Positions 2,135 through 62,489 of a stretch of 64,000 bases of DNA are shown in pieces. The DNA is from Stenotrophomonas sp. MMGLT7 (GTDB taxonomy: Bacteria > Pseudomonadota > Gammaproteobacteria > Xanthomonadales > Xanthomonadaceae): positions 276,061 through 340,060 of the forward strand of contig NZ_JAJOZS010000003.1 in assembly GCF_021168555.1 (NCBI RefSeq), read 5' to 3'. Every line of letters begins with the position of its first letter. Within the stretch, counting starts at the first letter, position 1. A model generated the notes under the pieces. That model was not told the DNA's origin. It worked only from the letters and a program-made list of their open reading frames with translations, and made no database searches. A program made the translations under genes and the position numbers.

Positions 2135-2457
2135 AGGCGGCCCCGCCGCATCGGCCGGCGACGCCGCCGGCCTGCCCGCGATCCGGGCGGTGTCCGCCCT
2201 CGTAGCGGGGATGCGGGCGCAAGCACCGGCGCAGGCAACGAAGGCGGTCGTCGTCGCCGCGGCTCCCACGACCGAAGCGCTTCTCCGCAGCCGGAGTGCT
2301 CGCAACGCCGGAACGCTTCATCGGGGCGGAAAGACGGGCCACGGCCGGTCGTGGCGGGTCAACCTGGAGAAGCCGCGATCGTCGCTCCCGCGAAGGCGGG
2401 AGCCCGGGGACGTTGCGGCGACCGGCGCGGACGCCCTCGCGACCTGTCCACGATCTC

Positions 2458-2531
2458 CCGTAGGAGCGACTTCAGTCGCGATGGGGCTTTACCGGTGGAG
2501 CCCCGTCGCGACTGAAGTCGCTCCTACGGGC
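2458..2531. repeat. REP-type palindromic element (GTAGGAGCGACTTCAGTCGCGA … TCGCGACTGAAGTCGCTCCTAC)
   Basis: Two ~24-bp inverted copies flanking a ~26-bp loop; same unit recurs at 13990, 35910, 38572 and (variant) 13151. Confidence 0.8.
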
Positions 2532-2829
2532 AGCCGGCTCTCCTGCTCGTCGTTCCTGAGCCACGGCGACCGCTCGGCACCTGCTGCGCCCATGCGGGGA
2601 TCGTGCACGGGCTCCTGGACGATCAGCCGCCAGCCTGCTCCCCGCCTGCGCGGGGATGGCCGGACGCAAGCTCCGGCGCGCAGGCCCCGATCCGGATTCC
2701 GATACCGCCGAGCACGCCGGCAGCCCCGTCCCGGCCGTTCGACGCTGCAGTCGCCTGGCCCGGCAAGCGCAGCGCAACCGGGACCGGCCGGGGGCAGCGA
2801 TCGCCGCACCCGGCCACCGCCCGCATCGA

Positions 2830-51688: not shown

Positions 51689-52288
51689 CTACAGCCAGCC
51701 TTTCTGCCGGGCCAGGCGGTAGGCCTCGACGCGGTTGCCGACGCCGAGCTTGCCGATGCATCCGGACAGGTAGTTGCGCACGGTGCCGGGCGAAAGGCCC
51801 AGCCGCCCGGCGATCTGCGCCGCCGACAGCCCCTCGCCCGCCAGCCGCAGCACGCCGCGCTCGCGCTCGCTGAACGGATCAGCCTGCGACCAGGCGTCCA
51901 GCGCCAGCTGCGGATCGATGGCACGGCCGCCGCGGTGCACCTGGCGCAGCGCCGCGGCCAGCGTCTCGGCCGGCGCGTCCTTGAGCAGGTAGCCGCCGAC
52001 CCCGGCGTCGAGTGCGCGGCGCAGGAATCCCGGGCGCGCGAAGGTGGTCACGATCACCACCCGCACCGGCAGGGCATGGCGCTGGACCCGCTGCGCCAGT
52101 TCCAGGCCGCTCAGGCCCGGCATCTCGATGTCGGTGACCAGCACGTCCGGACGCAGCCGCTGCAGCTCGCGCCAGGCGTTCTCGCCGTCGCCGGCGCTGC
52201 CGACCACCTCGATGTCGTCCTCCAGCTCGAGCAGCGCCGCCAGCGCGCCGCGCAGCATCGCCTGGTCCTCGGCCAGCAGCACGCGCAT
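51689..52288 (-). CDS. LuxR/NarL-family response regulator
   Basis: MRVLLAEDQAMLR… receiver (D54-like VLVTDIEMPG), C-terminal LuxR HTH (…LSERERGVLRLAGEGLSAAQIAGRLGLSPGTVRNY…). Confidence 0.85.
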   Translation of the reverse strand: MRVLLAEDQAMLRGALAALLELEDDIEVVGSAGDGENAWRELQRLRPDVLVTDIEMPGLSGLELAQRVQRHALPVRVVIVTTFARPGFLRRALDAGVGGYLLKDAPAETLAAALRQVHRGGRAIDPQLALDAWSQADPFSERERGVLRLAGEGLSAAQIAGRLGLSPGTVRNYLSGCIGKLGVGNRVEAYRLARQKGWL

Positions 52289-56725: not shown

Positions 56726-57537
<812 letters not shown>

Positions 57538-59496: not shown

Positions 59497-60810
59497 ATGA
59501 AATCCAGGAATTGGCTGTGGAACCTGCTTTCGATCCTGCTGCTGGCGCTGCTGCTGGCGATCTGGATCGTGCTGCCGTGGTATGGCGTGCTCGCCGTCGC
59601 GGCGGCCGTCGCGCTGTGGCTGCTGCTCGCCCGCAGCGGCCGGCTGGCGCTGGCGGCCGCGCGCATCGGCATCGCCAGCCTGCCGCAGCGCTGGGGCGCC
59701 TCGTCGGTGATCGTGGTCGGCATCGCCGGCGTGGTCGGCGTTCTGGTGGCGATGCTGGCGATGGGCGAGGGCTTCAAGGCCACGCTCGCCAGTACCGGCG
59801 ACGACAGCAGCGCGATCGTGCTGCGCGGCGGCTCGCAGGCCGAGAGCAACTCGGTCATCACCCGCGACCAGGTACCGCTGGTGGCCAGCCTGCCCGGCAT
59901 CGTCCGCGGACAGGACAACCGCCCGCTGCTCTCGCCGGAGATGTCGCAGGTGGTGAACCTGGCCTCCAAGGCCGACGGCACCGATACCAACGTGCAGTTC
60001 CGCGGCATCGGCGAGCTGGGCTGGGCGGTGCACGACAAGGTCAGGATCGTGCAGGGCCGCAGGTTCGGCGCGGGACTGCGCGAGGTCGTGGTCGGCCAGG
60101 GCGCGCTGGGCCAGTTCCGCGGCCTGGAGGTCGGCAGCACGCTGGCCCTGGGCCGCGAGCAGTGGACCGTGGTGGGGGTGTTCGCCTCCGGCGACGCCCA
60201 CGACTCGGAGCTGTGGGGCGACGCGCAGACACTGGCCTCCACCTACAACCGCAGCGCCTACCAGTCGATCACCGTCAAGACCGGCGACAAGGCCGGCTTC
60301 GAGCAGTTCAAGGCGGCGATGGCCGCCGACCCGCGGCTCAAGCTGGACGTGGAGACCACCCGCACCTACTACGCCAAGCAGGGCGGCGGCATGAGCACCC
60401 TGATCACGGTCCTGGGCACGGTGATCGGCGCCATCATGGCGGTGGGCGCGGTGTTCGGCGCACTCAACACCATGTACGCGGCGGTGGCAACGCGTGCGCG
60501 CGAGATCGCCACCATGCGCGCCATCGGCTTCCGCGGCCTGCCGGTAGTGGCCGCGGTGATGCTGGAGACGATGCTGCTGGCGCTGGTCGGCGGCGTGCTC
60601 GGCGGACTGGTCGCCTGGCTGGTGTTCAACAACTACAGCGTGTCCACCCTGGGCAGCAACTTCAGCCAGGTGGTGTTCCAGTTCCGCGTCTCGCCGGAAC
60701 TGCTGTGGAGCGGGTTGAAGTGGGCGCTGGGCATCGGCCTGGTCGGCGGGCTGTTCCCGGCGCTGCGCGCCGCGCGGCTGCCGATCACCGCGGCCTTGCG
60801 CGAGGTGTAG
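59497..60810 (+). CDS. second FtsX-like ABC transporter permease
   Basis: Same architecture (…TMRAIGFRGLPVVAAVMLETMLLALVGG…). Confidence 0.8.
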   Translation: MKSRNWLWNLLSILLLALLLAIWIVLPWYGVLAVAAAVALWLLLARSGRLALAAARIGIASLPQRWGASSVIVVGIAGVVGVLVAMLAMGEGFKATLASTGDDSSAIVLRGGSQAESNSVITRDQVPLVASLPGIVRGQDNRPLLSPEMSQVVNLASKADGTDTNVQFRGIGELGWAVHDKVRIVQGRRFGAGLREVVVGQGALGQFRGLEVGSTLALGREQWTVVGVFASGDAHDSELWGDAQTLASTYNRSAYQSITVKTGDKAGFEQFKAAMAADPRLKLDVETTRTYYAKQGGGMSTLITVLGTVIGAIMAVGAVFGALNTMYAAVATRAREIATMRAIGFRGLPVVAAVMLETMLLALVGGVLGGLVAWLVFNNYSVSTLGSNFSQVVFQFRVSPELLWSGLKWALGIGLVGGLFPALRAARLPITAALREV

Positions 60811-60987
60811 GCCGCACGCGGAACCCGAGCGCGGGACAAGGCTCTCGGGTTCCCGGAACCGGATAGAGGCACGAGCGCCGAACCTCGTTCTCGTCATCCC
60901 CGCGTTCGCATTGCTGTCGGGAGAAAATTCAGGATCGGACAGTTGTCAGCCGAAGTGGCATGGCTCGCGTTCGGAAGAATTGAACGC

Positions 60988-61107
60988 GTCGTCCCCGCGC
61001 AGGCGGGGAACCGGCGACTTGCGCGGCGAGATCAATCGGCTCCGCAATCTCCCGGTAGTTCCGCCTTTCAAGGCACAGGCACTGGTTCCCCGCCTGCGCG
61101 GGGACGA
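60988..61107. repeat. pair of perfect 25-bp inverted repeats (GTCGTCCCCGCGCAGGCGGGGAACC / GGTTCCCCGCCTGCGCGGGGACGAC), 70 bp apart, resembling type I-E CRISPR repeat
   Basis: Second copy is the exact reverse complement of the first. Core CCCCGCGC-nnn-CGGGGA like the E. coli I-E repeat GAGTTCCCCGCGCCAGCGGGGATAAACCG. No cas genes; flanked by an AT-richer 60-bp segment upstream. Confidence 0.7.
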
Positions 61108-61238
61108 CGAGCAACGGATGGCGGCCCACGACCCGGCTTTCCCCGGACCGCGGAGCGAACCCGGCGCCCCGCATCGGCGCCCCGTCCGGACCGGCCGCGT
61201 CCTTCGTCGCGCCGGCCCGGCGCTGAACGCCGACCGCA

Positions 61239-61256
61239 CTGTCACCCAACTGTCAT
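61239..61256 (+). promoter_or_regulatory. Pho box (CTGTCAC-CCAA-CTGTCAT) 70 bp upstream of alpha/beta-hydrolase gene
   Basis: Two perfect 7-bp direct repeats matching PhoB half-site consensus with canonical 4-nt spacer; possible -10 (TGGTAGAT) ~10 bp downstream. Confidence 0.55.
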
Positions 61257-61325
61257 CCGGGCGTGGTAGATGGCGCGGGCACGGTGCCGTTAGCCTGCAC
61301 GACCCCCGACGCCGTGCCCGCCTCC

Positions 61326-62489
61326 ATGAAACGCCTGCTCGTGCTCGCCGGGCTGCCGGTCCTCTGCCTGGGCCTGTGGCTGACCGGCTGCTCGCTGTCC
61401 ACCTCGTTCTCGCTCAGCCGCCAGCTGGAGGCGCCGCAGGGCGCCTCGCCGCTGCTGGACGCCGGCCGTATCGCCCAGGCCATCGCGCGGGTGCCCCATC
61501 GCAGCGGCTTCACCACTTCGCGCGACGGCGTGGCGCTGTTCTGGCGGGTGATCGATCCGGGCGACTATCGCCTGAGCTATCGCTATTCCGGGCAGGGCCG
61601 CAGCCATGCATCCGGCCGGCCGCTGGACGTGGACTTCGACTTCGCGCCGCCGCCGGCCACCGCCGCGGCGCAGGTCCCGCGCGGCACGCTGGTGCTGCTG
61701 CACGGCTGGATGATGGACGGCGACTCGCTGCTGCCGTGGTCGCTGACCTTCGCCCGCGCCGGCTACCGCGTGCTCACCCTGGACCTGCGCAACCACGGCC
61801 ACTCCGGTCCCGGCCCGTCCGGCTACGGCACGCGCGAGTCCGACGACCTGGTCGACGTGCTCGCCGACCTGCGCAGGCGCGGCGAACTGGCCGGGCCGCT
61901 GCACCTGTTCGGCATCTCCTACGGCGCGGCCACCGCGCTGTTCGCCGCCGACAAGCTCGGCCCCGAGGTCGCGAGCGTGGTGGCGCTTGAGTCGTTCGAC
62001 AACGCCGGCCGCGGCATCCGCGACATGGTCCCGCACATGCTGGCCAGCGAACCTTCCAACTGGGAAGGCCGGGCGCTGCTGGGCTATGCACGCTGGCGCT
62101 ACGCCGACCGCGACCTGGGCGCGGTGATCGGCGAGGCCGACCGCGCGCTCGGACTGGACCTGGACCGCATCGACGTCGCCCCGGCCCTGCGGCGCGCCGC
62201 CGCCCATACCTGCACCCTGCTGCTGCACGGCGACCGCGACCAGCACATCCCGGTCGCGCACGGCCGCCGGCTGGCGACCGGGGCGCCGCAGGCACGCTAC
62301 GTGGAAGTGCGTGGCGAGGACCACATCAGCCTGCCGCTGCGGCTGGACCTGCTCGGCGACGTGGTCACCGACTGGATGGCGCGCTCGCCGTCGGCCGGGG
62401 GCGGCTGCGGCCAGCCGCACCTGCCGGACGCCGCCGGCAACGACCTGCTGGTGCAGGGAGTGGACGGCCGCCGCGACTCGCGCGGCTGA
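61326..62489 (+). CDS. alpha/beta-hydrolase-fold lipoprotein
   Basis: MKRLLVLAGLPVLCLGLWLTGC lipobox; nucleophile elbow GISYGA, HGW oxyanion region, C-terminal His (HGDRDQHIP). Confidence 0.75.
   Translation: MKRLLVLAGLPVLCLGLWLTGCSLSTSFSLSRQLEAPQGASPLLDAGRIAQAIARVPHRSGFTTSRDGVALFWRVIDPGDYRLSYRYSGQGRSHASGRPLDVDFDFAPPPATAAAQVPRGTLVLLHGWMMDGDSLLPWSLTFARAGYRVLTLDLRNHGHSGPGPSGYGTRESDDLVDVLADLRRRGELAGPLHLFGISYGAATALFAADKLGPEVASVVALESFDNAGRGIRDMVPHMLASEPSNWEGRALLGYARWRYADRDLGAVIGEADRALGLDLDRIDVAPALRRAAAHTCTLLLHGDRDQHIPVAHGRRLATGAPQARYVEVRGEDHISLPLRLDLLGDVVTDWMARSPSAGGGCGQPHLPDAAGNDLLVQGVDGRRDSRG

What the first reader, a model, noticed from the sequence alone, without database searches (positions are those of the whole stretch)
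60930..61110. Orphan pair of type-I-E-CRISPR-like repeats in inverted orientation
GTCGTCCCCGCGCAGGCGGGGAACC (60988-61012) and its exact reverse complement (61083-61107) flank a 70-bp segment. The repeat core CCCCGCGC-nnn-CGGGGA closely resembles canonical I-E repeats. A short AT-richer, leader-like stretch precedes the first copy. There are no cas genes in the neighbourhood. Possible explanations are a decayed mini-array, a MITE built from CRISPR-repeat-like hairpins, or a bidirectional terminator between the FtsX operon and the hydrolase gene. If a I-E system exists elsewhere in the genome, this could be a distant orphan locus.
Basis: partly seen in the sequence, partly recalled or inferred. 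Interest (0 to 1): 0.55.

Follow-up and report, generated by a model that had tools for sequence, protein, structure and literature searches.

The report
Inverted NTS-type hairpin repeat pair, not CRISPR
The two inverted 25-base repeats are a head-outward pair of "NTS/dRS3-type" hairpin repeats, a dispersed intergenic repeat family found across many bacteria and recently shown in Neisseria to be the target of a small single-strand-DNA nuclease (Ssn); they are not a CRISPR remnant, so the finding is real but of a known kind.

Summary
GTCGTCCCCGCGCAGGCGGGGAACC lies at 60988-61012. Its exact reverse complement lies at 61084-61108, one base off the stated position, with 71 nt between the copies.

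The CRISPR reading fails. The copies are inverted, there are only two, the interval is 71 nt and matches no phage or plasmid, and the 64-kb window has no cas gene.

The same 25-mer occurs in 43 species-level genomes, once per locus. It usually has an inverted, diverged partner 14-124 nt away. Family arms share four features:
- an invariant 5' GTC head
- a covarying 8-bp stem
- a G(C/A)AG loop
- a 3' CC tail

This is the Neisseria NTS/dRS3 motif (24 of 28 positions). Chenal et al. 2025 showed that motif is bound and cut, as single-stranded DNA only, by the GIY-YIG nuclease SsnA. In all 8 ssn loci I examined, family arms lie within about 250 nt of the gene.

Relatives of the source organism (Lysobacteraceae) lack the pair at the orthologous site or carry a single 28-bp palindrome there. 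The window holds no ssn gene, so activity in this genome is inferred, not shown.

Verdict: a new member of a known kind (a GTCG subtype outside the published search pattern). Interest is low to moderate.

The parts
60987..61014 (+). Left arm in the 28-nt NTS frame: CGTCGTCCCCGCGCAGGCGGGGAACCGG. It has a GTC head, an 8-position stem (7 Watson-Crick pairs plus a G.A at the base), a GCAG loop and a CC tail.
   Evidence: 24 of 28 positions match the NTS consensus. Family stem covariation. Head and tail conservation.
61082..61109 (-). Right arm, sense on the minus strand: CGTCGTCCCCGCGCAGGCGGGGAACCAG. With the left arm it forms a head-outward doublet.
   Evidence: Head-outward is the dominant geometry of the family (33 of 45 neighbouring arm pairs).
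61015..61081 (.). Interior of the doublet (71 nt when measured between the 25-mers, 61013-61083). It is 61% GC. Only the inner flanks resemble other Lysobacterales copies (GGCGAYTT and CACTGG).
   Evidence: No phage match. Plasmid hits fall only on the arms. The interior is not conserved among five Lysobacterales copies.
60893..60909 (+). Degenerate half arm GTCATCCCCGCGTTCGC. It keeps the head, the 5' half of the stem and the loop, but has lost the 3' half. It aligns with the left half of the single 28-bp palindrome at the orthologous site in relatives L045 and L046.
   Evidence: Local alignment of the L045 left flank plus half hairpin to window 60848-60904 scores 52, against 26 for the next best place.
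60905..60986 (.). Its last 40 nt together with the left arm (60947-61024) recur at 81% identity at a non-orthologous locus of a related MAG (L003). It therefore belongs to a repeated module and is not a CRISPR leader.
60820..60853 (+). A separate 13-bp stem-loop (GGAACCCGAGCGC / GCTCTCGGGTTCC) 10 nt after the permease stop codon, with no T tract. It is not part of the repeat family. It is listed because it is the structure nearest the end of the operon.
   Evidence: I16. One search found no terminator-like site.
2380..2407 (+). Third family arm in the window: CGTCGCTCCCGCGAAGGCGGGAGCCCGG. Two stem pairs are changed in a compensatory way relative to the other arms.
   Evidence: The 52-nt module 2365-2416 is 90% identical to L003 4456-4507.
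2636..2662 (-). Degenerate partner of the third arm. The core CCCCGCCTGCGCGGGG is intact, but the head reads GCCA instead of GTCA/GTCG and the tail GC instead of CC. About 230 nt separate the two arms, and a GTAG-type REP doublet is nested between them.
   Evidence: The module 2641-2702 is 81% identical to L003 4044-4104.

Best explanation
The feature is a head-outward doublet of NTS/SRM-type hairpin repeats. This is the family first seen as Neisseria dRS3/NIME repeats and later called REPINs.

Each arm has four parts:
- a 5' (C)GTC head
- an 8-bp stem with an invariant CCCGC/GCGGG core
- a G(C/A)AG tetraloop
- a 3' CC tail

What is shown here: the sequence and polarity of the arms, the covarying stem, the dispersal of the same arm across many genomes as doublets with variable interiors, the presence or absence of the doublet at the orthologous site in relatives, and the tight linkage of this arm type to small GIY-YIG (Ssn-family) genes in other genomes.

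What is taken from the literature (Chenal et al. 2025, PMC11893778): when the DNA is single-stranded, the arm folds and SsnA binds it. The C just after the stem is critical for binding. SsnA then cuts a few bases 5' of the head, and the GTC is critical for cutting. It does not act on double-stranded DNA, on RNA or on the reverse strand. In Neisseria this lowers integration of incoming transforming DNA that carries the repeat.

What is inferred for this window: each strand of the doublet presents one sense arm. An Ssn enzyme, if the genome encodes one outside the 64 kb, would nick single-stranded copies just outside the doublet, left of about 60987 on the + strand and right of about 61109 on the - strand. 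The doublet itself most likely arrived as a unit, as a non-autonomous relative of the [arm - ssn - arm] arrangement. Any effect on transcription of the neighbouring genes would be a side effect of the strong hairpin.

The confidence of 0.75 combines about 0.9 for the family assignment with roughly even odds that an Ssn enzyme acts on this copy in this genome.
For: 1. Sequence. Both arms match the published NTS consensus CGTCATTCCCGCGMAVGCGGGAATCYRG at 24 of 28 positions. Two of the four differences form a compensatory stem change (consensus).

2. Unbiased scan. I scanned the 47 related loci plus the window for the palindromic core only. Of 63 non-seed hairpins, 42 carry GTC at -6..-4 on one strand (40) or on both (2). 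In the 40 that could be oriented, the two bases after the stem are C (39/40) and C (38/40). These are the positions the paper found critical.

3. Covariation. Across 39 distinct arms the 8-bp stem is 97.8% paired, 5 of 8 pairs show double changes, and 0 of 500 shuffles reach the observed score. All slid controls are 56% paired or less.

4. Dispersal. The exact 25-mer occurs in 43 loci from alpha-, beta-, gamma- and deltaproteobacterial and other assemblies, always once per locus. Chance expectation is below 0.1 (my calculation). Most copies have an inverted, diverged partner.

5. Geometry. Among neighbouring arms, 33 are head-outward, 6 head-inward and 6 direct, with interiors of 14-124 nt.

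6. Linkage to ssn. Two of the 43 loci carry a 95-96-aa GIY-YIG ORF (PF01541, E about 1e-15) 18-45 nt from a GTCG-type arm. These ORFs are about 63% identical to the N. gonorrhoeae SsnA homologue. Arms lie next to ssn in N. gonorrhoeae, Photobacterium and Azospirillum, and in three further ssn loci chosen without looking at their DNA. That makes 8 of 8. In L019, L137, L138 and L139 the gene sits inside a head-outward arm pair.

7. Local dynamics. The orthologous permease-hydrolase spacer has no arm in Xanthomonas sp. AmX2 (L044). In Luteimonas (L135) the two genes overlap and there is no spacer. In L045 and L046 there is one 28-bp perfect palindrome, CGTCGTCCCCGCGAAAGCGGGGACGACG. Arm-plus-flank modules recur at a non-orthologous site in a related MAG.

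8. Expanded loops. Partner arms with expanded loops (L008, L011, L025, L027, L030, L041) fit the paper's finding that loop identity and loop extensions do not prevent cleavage.
Against: - No ssn (GIY-YIG) gene is present in the 64-kb window, by tblastn or Pfam. I could not reach the rest of the genome, and I found no Ssn homologue from Lysobacteraceae. The top 120 of at least 7995 homologues named none.
- The arms have 4 mismatches to the NTS, whereas the paper allowed 1. They also fail the published SRM search pattern, because the base after GTC is G and not A/T.
- The base pair at the foot of the stem is a G.A mismatch in both arms.
- The paper reports that changing the palindrome sequence while keeping the structure abolished Neisseria SsnA activity, so a cognate enzyme would be needed.
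- Arm density in the window is low: 3 good and 2 degenerate arms in 64 kb.
- How such repeats spread is unknown even in Neisseria.
Confidence: 0.75

Rival explanations
1. It is a REPIN: a doublet of REP sequences mobilised by a RAYT (IS200/IS605-like Y1) transposase, as Bertels and Rainey proposed for the same motif in Neisseria.
For: - The architecture fits: two inverted short palindromic repeats forming one long hairpin.
- Bertels and Rainey list ATTCCCGCGCAGGCGGGAATC as the Neisseria REPIN. They link it to a Group 2 RAYT, with REPIN decay where the RAYT is frameshifted.
- A dRS3 doublet lies 110-240 nt upstream of the N. gonorrhoeae RAYT.
Against: - The arms lack the GTAG head of RAYT-associated REPs (known from the RAYT literature); they start GTCG or GTCA.
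- None of 80 metagenomic RAYT loci, each with up to 1.5-kb flanks, holds a family arm or even the core. Many of the same loci carry GTAG hairpins in inverted orientation around the gene, which serves as a positive control.
- The N. gonorrhoeae RAYT is directly flanked by GTAGGTCGGAT-type hairpins, not by dRS3.
- No RAYT is present in the window or in the 47 related loci.
- The window has a separate GTAG-type REP doublet at 2460-2528. That doublet is the more natural RAYT substrate in this genome.
Confidence: 0.1
2. It is a decayed or orphan type I-E CRISPR mini-array: two repeats and one spacer.
For: - The first 21 nt of the arm are identical to a bona fide I-E repeat (P. acidipropionici, table in PMC4762764).
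- The stem CCCCGC/GCGGGG with a 4-nt loop is that of the E. coli I-E repeat (my own knowledge).
- A weak sub-threshold Rfam CRISPR-DR28 hit covers the stem only (17 bits against a gathering score of 35).
Against: - The copies are inverted, whereas CRISPR repeats are direct.
- There are only two copies.
- The interval is 71 nt and matches no phage or plasmid.
- The 3' part differs from the I-E handle.
- No cas domain occurs in 46 ORFs of the window.
- The same 25-mer in 43 other genomes is always single per locus with an inverted partner, never in a CRISPR-spaced array.
- The 'leader' is part of a repeated module.
Confidence: 0.01
3. It acts mainly as an RNA hairpin, either a terminator or a 3'-end stabiliser for the ABC-transporter operon, with no link to a nuclease or to mobility.
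For: - It lies 177 nt downstream of the permease stop codon, between two genes on the same strand.
- The hairpin is very stable.
- REP-type hairpins are known to stabilise upstream mRNA in enterobacteria (established knowledge).
Against: - No T tract follows either arm, and the consensus scan found no terminator-like site.
- Orthologous operons in AmX2 and Luteimonas lack the element altogether.
- An invariant GTC head and CC tail and a fixed polarity would not be needed for a plain hairpin.
- A separate stem-loop sits right after the stop codon at 60820-60853.

This effect could still coexist with the main explanation as a by-product.
Confidence: 0.07
4. It is a passive landing pad: a conserved palindrome kept or spread because site-specific IS110/IS1111-type recombinases or filamentous phages integrate into it, as Nf/MDA prophages do at Neisseria dRS3.
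For: - The literature states that MDA/Nf prophages insert in dRS3.
- The same arm is present on Coxiella QpH1-type plasmids.
- Relative to L045 and L046, the window carries about 190 extra bases between the two halves of what is a single palindrome there.
Against: - No recombinase, IS or phage gene is in or next to the element. The extra DNA is non-coding repeat modules.
- The 25-mer is absent from 2.9 million viral contigs.
- Being a target would not explain the strand-specific head and tail conservation. It also does not exclude the Ssn relation.
Confidence: 0.05

Closest known systems
NTS (Neisseria Transformation Sequence) / SRM (Ssn-related motif) repeats with their SsnA GIY-YIG ssDNA nuclease (Chenal et al., Nat Commun 2025, PMC11893778)
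   Same: - The layout is the same: CGTC head, 8-bp stem around CCCGC/GCGGG, G(M)AG loop, C(Y)RG tail. The match is 24 of 28 positions.
- The arms are oriented, intergenic, dispersed and often paired.
- The same arm type sits next to ssn homologues in 8 of 8 loci examined.
   Different: - The base after GTC is G, so the published SRM pattern does not match.
- The stem is GTCCCCGC rather than ATTCCCGC, with a G.A at its foot.
- No ssn gene lies within the 64 kb.
- The host is a Lysobacteraceae member, a group not named in the paper's main text.
- Nuclease activity on this variant is untested.
Neisseria dRS3 repeats / NIMEs (neisserial intergenic mosaic elements)
   Same: - A 20-bp palindrome of the form ATTCCC-N8-GGGAAT bounds variable 'RS' segments in intergenic mosaics.
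- The window shows the same mosaic style: half arm, 82-nt segment, arm, 67-nt segment, arm.
- At 2380-2662 another repeat is nested between two arms.
   Different: The stem sequence differs (GTCCCC/GGGGAA). Density is far lower: 3 to 5 arms per 64 kb, against 672 dRS3 copies in the genome of N. meningitidis Z2491.
REPINs / REP-RAYT systems
   Same: An inverted doublet of short palindromic repeats forms a long hairpin, with presence or absence differences between relatives.
   Different: There is no GTAG head, and no RAYT association in 80 RAYT loci. The window's GTAG-type REP doublet at 2460-2528 belongs to a different family.
Type I-E CRISPR repeats
   Same: The first 21 nt are identical to the P. 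acidipropionici I-E repeat. The 6-bp CCCCGC/GCGGGG stem and 4-nt loop are the same.
   Different: The orientation is inverted, there are two copies, the interval is 71 nt, the 3' part differs, and there are no cas genes, no leader and no array.

Membership tests
NTS/SRM (Ssn-related) hairpin repeats | A short hairpin with a CCCGC/GCGGG core, a stem of about 8 bp and a 4-nt loop | tested here: met
   Both arms. Family-wide covariation of the 8-bp stem.
NTS/SRM (Ssn-related) hairpin repeats | Oriented, non-palindromic flanks: the three bases 5' of the palindrome (GTC, needed for cutting) and the C just 3' of it (needed for binding) | tested here: met
   Both arms have CGTC at the 5' end and CC at the 3' end. 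In an unbiased core scan the tail is C in 39/40 and C in 38/40 oriented arms.
NTS/SRM (Ssn-related) hairpin repeats | A match to the published search patterns: NTS with at most 1 mismatch, or the SRM pattern HGTCWYN(0-2)YYVSBRHN(0-5)WNVSBRGN(0-2)RNCYNB | tested here: not met
   The arms have 4 mismatches to the NTS. The SRM pattern fails at W because the arm reads GTCG. The only SRM hit in the window is an unrelated site at 51962. GTCG-type arms nevertheless flank ssn in L019 and L029.
NTS/SRM (Ssn-related) hairpin repeats | Many dispersed, mostly intergenic copies in the genome | tested here: inconclusive
   The 64 kb holds 3 good and 2 degenerate arms, all intergenic. Related Lysobacterales loci each carry copies. 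The whole genome was not available.
NTS/SRM (Ssn-related) hairpin repeats | An ssn gene (small single-domain GIY-YIG, cd10448) in the same genome, usually flanked by the repeats | not testable with these tools
   None is in the window, and the rest of the genome could not be reached. In other genomes the linkage held in 8 of 8 loci.
NTS/SRM (Ssn-related) hairpin repeats | Strand-specific binding and cleavage as single-stranded DNA only | not testable with these tools
   This needs a biochemical assay. The single-stranded DNA fold of the element is stable.
REPIN / REP-RAYT | Two inverted REPs forming a hairpin | tested here: met
REPIN / REP-RAYT | A conserved GTAG at the foot of the REP hairpin | tested here: not met
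   The arms start GTCG. Family heads are GTCG or GTCA.
REPIN / REP-RAYT | A RAYT gene flanked by the same repeat | tested here: not met
   No RAYT is in the window or related loci. None of 80 RAYT loci holds a family arm, while GTAG hairpins are common there. The Neisseria RAYT is directly flanked by GTAG hairpins.
Type I-E CRISPR array | Direct repeats of 28-29 nt at regular spacing, with spacers of about 32 nt | tested here: not met
   There are two copies, inverted, 71 nt apart.
Type I-E CRISPR array | Adjacent cas genes or a leader | tested here: not met
   No Cas domain occurs in 46 ORFs across the window. The 'leader' is a repeated module. Cas genes elsewhere in the genome could not be tested.
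Type I-E CRISPR array | A spacer derived from a mobile element | tested here: not met
   There is no phage hit. Plasmid hits fall only on the arms.
Intrinsic (rho-independent) terminator | A GC-rich hairpin followed by a T/U tract | tested here: not met
   No terminator-like site occurs in 60500-61600 on either strand. The bases after the arms are GAGCAACGG on the + strand and GCGTTCAATTC on the - strand.
Classical MITE (TIR plus target-site duplication) | Terminal inverted repeats with a flanking direct duplication, and presence or absence differences between relatives | tested here: inconclusive
   TIR-like arms and presence/absence differences are seen. No direct duplication flanks the doublet: AACGC on the left, GAGCA on the right.

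The most novel reading that the evidence does not exclude
The short doublets may be ssn-less, non-autonomous copies of a mobile [arm - ssn - arm] unit. In that case Ssn-type GIY-YIG nucleases would be the mobilising enzymes of a hairpin-MITE family that spans many bacterial classes. They would act on single-stranded DNA in a way analogous to, but independent of, RAYT/IS200-IS605. The GTCG subtype seen here would be a lineage missed by the published search pattern. A more remote corollary is that the 21-nt identity with some type I-E CRISPR repeats reflects shared ancestry or cross-recognition rather than convergence on a stable GC hairpin.
Probability: 0.15. Interest if true: 0.6.

Novelty: new member of a known kind. 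Interest (0 to 1): 0.25.

Why it matters
Three practical points follow.

1. It removes a false CRISPR lead. NTS/SRM-type arms can be identical to genuine type I-E repeats over 21 nt, so relaxed CRISPR finders and human readers will mistake them for orphan repeats.

2. It extends the Ssn-related repeat family to a Lysobacteraceae genome and to a GTCG-headed subtype that the published SRM pattern does not capture. Surveys using that pattern will therefore undercount the family.

3. It gives a concrete substrate (60975-61020 on the + strand, 61120-61075 on the - strand) for testing Ssn specificity.

The biology itself, what these repeats do outside Neisseria and how they spread, remains open. This single locus does not resolve it.

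Tried and rejected
- **Rfam.** An E-value search of 60700-61400 gave only spurious long-hairpin matches to plant and viral miRNA/VA models and a 17-bit CRISPR-DR28 hit on the stem. A gathering-threshold search of the whole window gave nothing.
- **Spacer test.** The 71-nt interior has no phage match. A plasmid search of 60912-61120 hit only the arm, in Coxiella and Photobacterium. The 25-mer is absent from viral contigs.
- **RAYT hypothesis.**
  - E. coli RayT by tblastn against the window and loci gave nothing.
  - 80 metagenomic RAYT loci hold no family arms.
- **Source genome.**
  - An exact look-up of the permease failed.
  - A 2.4-kb Logan contig of the same organism ends inside the left arm, so it adds nothing beyond the arm.
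- **Ssn in Lysobacteraceae.** The profile search returned at least 7995 homologues, but the 120 listed include none from that family. The paper's supplementary tables are not held.
- **Terminator.** The scan found none.
- **Alignment at the orthologous site.** MAFFT placed the relative's palindrome under the right arm. A local alignment showed that the left flank and left half align better to 60848-60904. I therefore describe the window as carrying about 190 extra bases relative to L045/L046, and I do not claim a precise insertion point.
- **Correction.** An early note of mine placed the half arm at 60900-60911. The correct position is 60893-60904.
Full report
**1. The observation**

GTCGTCCCCGCGCAGGCGGGGAACC is at 60988-61012 on the + strand. 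No match with up to three mismatches appeared in 100 dinucleotide-preserving shuffles.

The complementarity extends to 33-nt arms, 60987-61019 and 61077-61109, at 91%. Each arm is itself a small hairpin. As single-stranded DNA the whole element folds into one long hairpin of -52.4 kcal/mol, z = -7.6.

The stretch before the first copy is indeed AT-richer: 52% GC at 60905-60986 against 70% overall.

The element lies in a 515-bp spacer. Upstream is a MacB/FtsX-type ABC transporter operon whose last permease ends at 60810. Downstream is an alpha/beta-hydrolase gene starting at 61326. Both are on the + strand.

**2. Is it CRISPR?**

The resemblance is real. The first 21 nt of the arm are identical to the type I-E repeat listed for Propionibacterium acidipropionici in PMC4762764. 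Everything else argues against a CRISPR locus:
- The copies are inverted, and there are only two.
- The interval is 71 nt. It matches nothing in 50,697 phage records. The plasmid search hit only the arms.
- The 25-mer is absent from the viral contig collection.
- Pfam scans of 46 ORFs covering the window found no Cas domain.
- Rfam gives nothing at gathering threshold anywhere in the window, and only a 17-bit match of the bare stem to a CRISPR-DR model.
- The 'leader-like' stretch is part of a repeated module. Positions 60947-61024 recur at 81% identity in a related MAG at a non-orthologous place.

**3. What the repeat is**

*Dispersal.* An exact-match scan of one genome per species found the 25-mer in 43 loci from alpha-, beta-, gamma- and deltaproteobacterial and a few other assemblies, always once per locus. 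For a 25-mer with 20 G/C, even if all 596 Gb were 70% GC, fewer than 0.1 matches are expected (my calculation).

*Partner arms.* In most loci a diverged inverted partner, typically GGATTCCCGCCTGCGCGGGAATGAC, follows 14-124 nt downstream.

*Polarity.* I scanned these loci for the palindromic core alone, which carries no strand information. Of 63 non-seed hairpins, 42 have GTC at positions -6 to -4 on one or both strands. After orienting the 40 with GTC on one strand only, the two bases after the stem are C in 39/40 and C in 38/40, and the loop is G(C/A)AG.

*Covariation.* Across 39 distinct arms the 8-bp stem is 97.8% paired. Five of eight pairs show changes on both sides (A-T/G-C, T-A/C-G and others). 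None of 500 shuffles reaches the observed score, and all slid controls are 56% paired or less.

*Geometry.* Neighbouring arms are head-outward in 33 cases, head-inward in 6 and direct in 6. The window's doublet, with its 71-nt interval, is a typical unit.

**4. Identification**

A text search for the core found two papers. Bertels and Rainey give ATTCCCGCGCAGGCGGGAATC as the Neisseria REPIN. The dRS3 literature led to Chenal et al. 2025 (PMC11893778).

That paper makes the following points:
- It defines the 28-nt NTS, CGTCATTCCCGCGMAVGCGGGAATCYRG, which encompasses dRS3.
- NTS-like 'SRM' repeats flank a small GIY-YIG gene (ssnA, cd10448) across bacteria.
- Purified SsnA binds the hairpin and cuts upstream of it.
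  - It does so only on single-stranded DNA and only on the sense strand.
  - The three bases 5' of the palindrome are critical for cutting.
  - The C just 3' of the palindrome is critical for binding.
  - Loop identity is dispensable.
- In N. meningitidis this lowers integration of NTS-bearing transforming DNA.

The window's arms, CGTCGTCCCCGCGCAGGCGGGGAACCGG and ...CCAG, match the NTS at 24 of 28 positions. Two of the four differences are a compensatory stem change, and the head and tail are intact. They do not satisfy the paper's own search patterns. There are four mismatches, and the base after GTC is G where the SRM pattern demands A or T.

**5. My own test of the ssn linkage**

Two of the 43 loci fetched only for the 25-mer carry a 95-96-aa GIY-YIG ORF (PF01541, E about 1e-15). 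It starts 18-45 nt from a GTCG-type arm (L019, L029). These proteins are about 63% identical to the N. gonorrhoeae homologue.

The N. gonorrhoeae gene sits among eight or more NTS arms. The Photobacterium and Azospirillum homologues are likewise next to doublets. Three more ssn loci, chosen from the homologue list without seeing their DNA, all have arms within about 60 nt of the ORF.

In L019, L137, L138 and L139 the gene lies inside a head-outward arm pair. This is the same geometry as the short doublets. It fits the paper's remark that NTS-ssnA-NTS looks like an insertion sequence.

**6. The RAYT alternative**

No RAYT is in the window or in the related loci. I fetched 80 metagenomic loci encoding RayT relatives, each with up to 1.5 kb on either side. 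None contains a family arm or even the core. Many have GTAG-headed hairpins in inverted orientation around the gene.

The N. gonorrhoeae RAYT is directly flanked by GTAGGTCGGAT-type hairpins, and a dRS3 doublet lies 110-240 nt further upstream. I therefore rank RAYT mobilisation as a minor rival. The population-level correlation reported by Bertels and Rainey still stands, and I did not test it.

**7. Local history**

The source organism is a Lysobacteraceae/Xanthomonadaceae member. Its permease is 86% identical to that of Xanthomonas sp. AmX2. Gene order around the site is conserved. The orthologous spacer varies:
- AmX2 (L044) has no arm.
- In Luteimonas notoginsengisoli (L135) the two genes overlap.
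- L045 and L046 (L046 from MAG OH_SBB_64) have a single perfect 28-bp palindrome, CGTCGTCCCCGCGAAAGCGGGGACGACG.

The relative's left flank and left half-hairpin align to window 60848-60904, where a half arm GTCATCCCCGCG survives at 60893-60904. The right half matches only the outer 12 nt of the right arm. The window therefore carries about 190 extra bases here: an AT-richer segment, the left arm, the interior and most of the right arm. The exact junctions and the direction of change, gain here or collapse there, are inferred and not shown.

A second locus in the window, 2365-2702, has an arm (2380-2407), a degenerate partner (2636-2662) and a GTAG-type REP doublet nested between them. Both end modules recur in L003 at a non-orthologous site with a different interior. 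Both lines of evidence indicate turnover or mobility of these units in this lineage.

**8. Mechanism**

*Shown:* the anatomy of the arms, the covariation, the dispersal, the linkage to ssn elsewhere, and the site polymorphism.

*From the literature:* hairpin formation in single-stranded DNA, Ssn binding, and upstream cleavage.

*Inferred for this genome:* an Ssn enzyme encoded outside the window would nick single-stranded copies just outside the doublet on either strand. Such single-stranded DNA arises in transforming DNA, conjugative DNA, the lagging strand or repair intermediates. This could influence uptake and recombination of this region, and the doublet could spread as an ssn-less unit.

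The window has no ssn gene, and I could not find a Lysobacteraceae homologue. The functional part therefore carries roughly even odds. The family assignment carries about 0.9.

A transcriptional side effect of the hairpin cannot be excluded, but it has no terminator signature.

**9. Verdict**

The finding is real and non-random, but the CRISPR interpretation is wrong. The element is a new member, a GTCG-headed subtype, of the known NTS/dRS3/SRM hairpin-repeat family, in its usual head-outward doublet form. Interest is low to moderate. Its main value is as a caution for CRISPR-like calls and as a pointer that the published SRM pattern misses a widespread subtype.

Noticed in passing
window 56727-57537: A long nested inverted repeat of about 810 bp fills the spacer between the HlyD-type membrane-fusion gene (ends about 56667) and the ABC ATPase gene (starts 57612) of the same operon.
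- (GCTGTT)n tracts sit at its outer ends.
- Its arms include 93 nt at 96% and 99 nt at 86% complementarity.
- As RNA it folds into one hairpin of -643 kcal/mol, z = -42.
- It is conserved, and still palindromic, at the orthologous site in Xanthomonas sp. AmX2 (L044 1282-1963, about 73% identity in both orientations).
- In L045 and L046 only the outer arms of about 100 nt remain.
- There is no Rfam match.

Its function is unknown. It may deserve its own follow-up.
   Followed up: partly
window 2460-2528: A classical GTAG-type REP doublet: GTAGGAGCGACTTCAGTCGCGA ... TCGCGACTGAAGTCGCTCCTAC. It is nested between the NTS-like arms at 2380-2407 and 2636-2662. The genome therefore carries at least two unrelated hairpin-repeat families. 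This one has the head expected of RAYT substrates.
   Followed up: partly
L049 (N. gonorrhoeae NZ_CP119142.1, RAYT at 1501-1973): The Neisseria RAYT gene is directly flanked by inverted GTAGGTCGGAT...ATCCGACCTAC hairpins. The dRS3/NTS doublet lies 110-240 nt further upstream. This bears on whether the dRS3 'REPIN' population is really the RAYT's substrate or the Ssn's.
   Followed up: partly
L008, L011, L025, L027, L030, L041 (partner arms): In several genomes the partner arm keeps the GGAT(T/C)CCCGC ... GCGGG(A/G)ATGAC foot but has a loop expanded to 15-35 nt, often with a secondary hairpin. Lysobacter cavernae (L027) is one example. This fits the published tolerance of Ssn for loop extensions.
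   Followed up: no
L139 1501-1800: An ssn homologue with its flanking arms is inserted between the hsdS and hsdR genes of a type I restriction-modification operon. In L134 (Azospirillum) another homologue sits between sufB and sufC. These operon-internal positions suggest that the arm-ssn-arm unit inserts as a cassette.
   Followed up: no
L019 7674-7779; L029 6856-6920; L030 7865-7934: Some genomes have short tandem runs of direct arms at a period of about 40-45 nt, with 15-20 nt between arms. Superficially these look array-like, but the spacing is far too tight for CRISPR.
   Followed up: no
window 60820-60853: A 13-bp stem-loop (GGAACCCGAGCGC / GCTCTCGGGTTCC) lies 10 nt after the permease stop codon, without a T tract. 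It is present in the same-species Logan contig L047 with one stem change, and absent from L045 and L046.
   Followed up: no
Plasmid collection hits H33, H35, H46, H47, H49 and others: Several records labelled as plasmids in PLSDB are whole chromosomes, for example N. gonorrhoeae at 2.17 Mb and Aeromonas caviae at 4.9 Mb. This was useful here, but it is a caveat for anyone reading 'plasmid' hits at face value.
   Followed up: no
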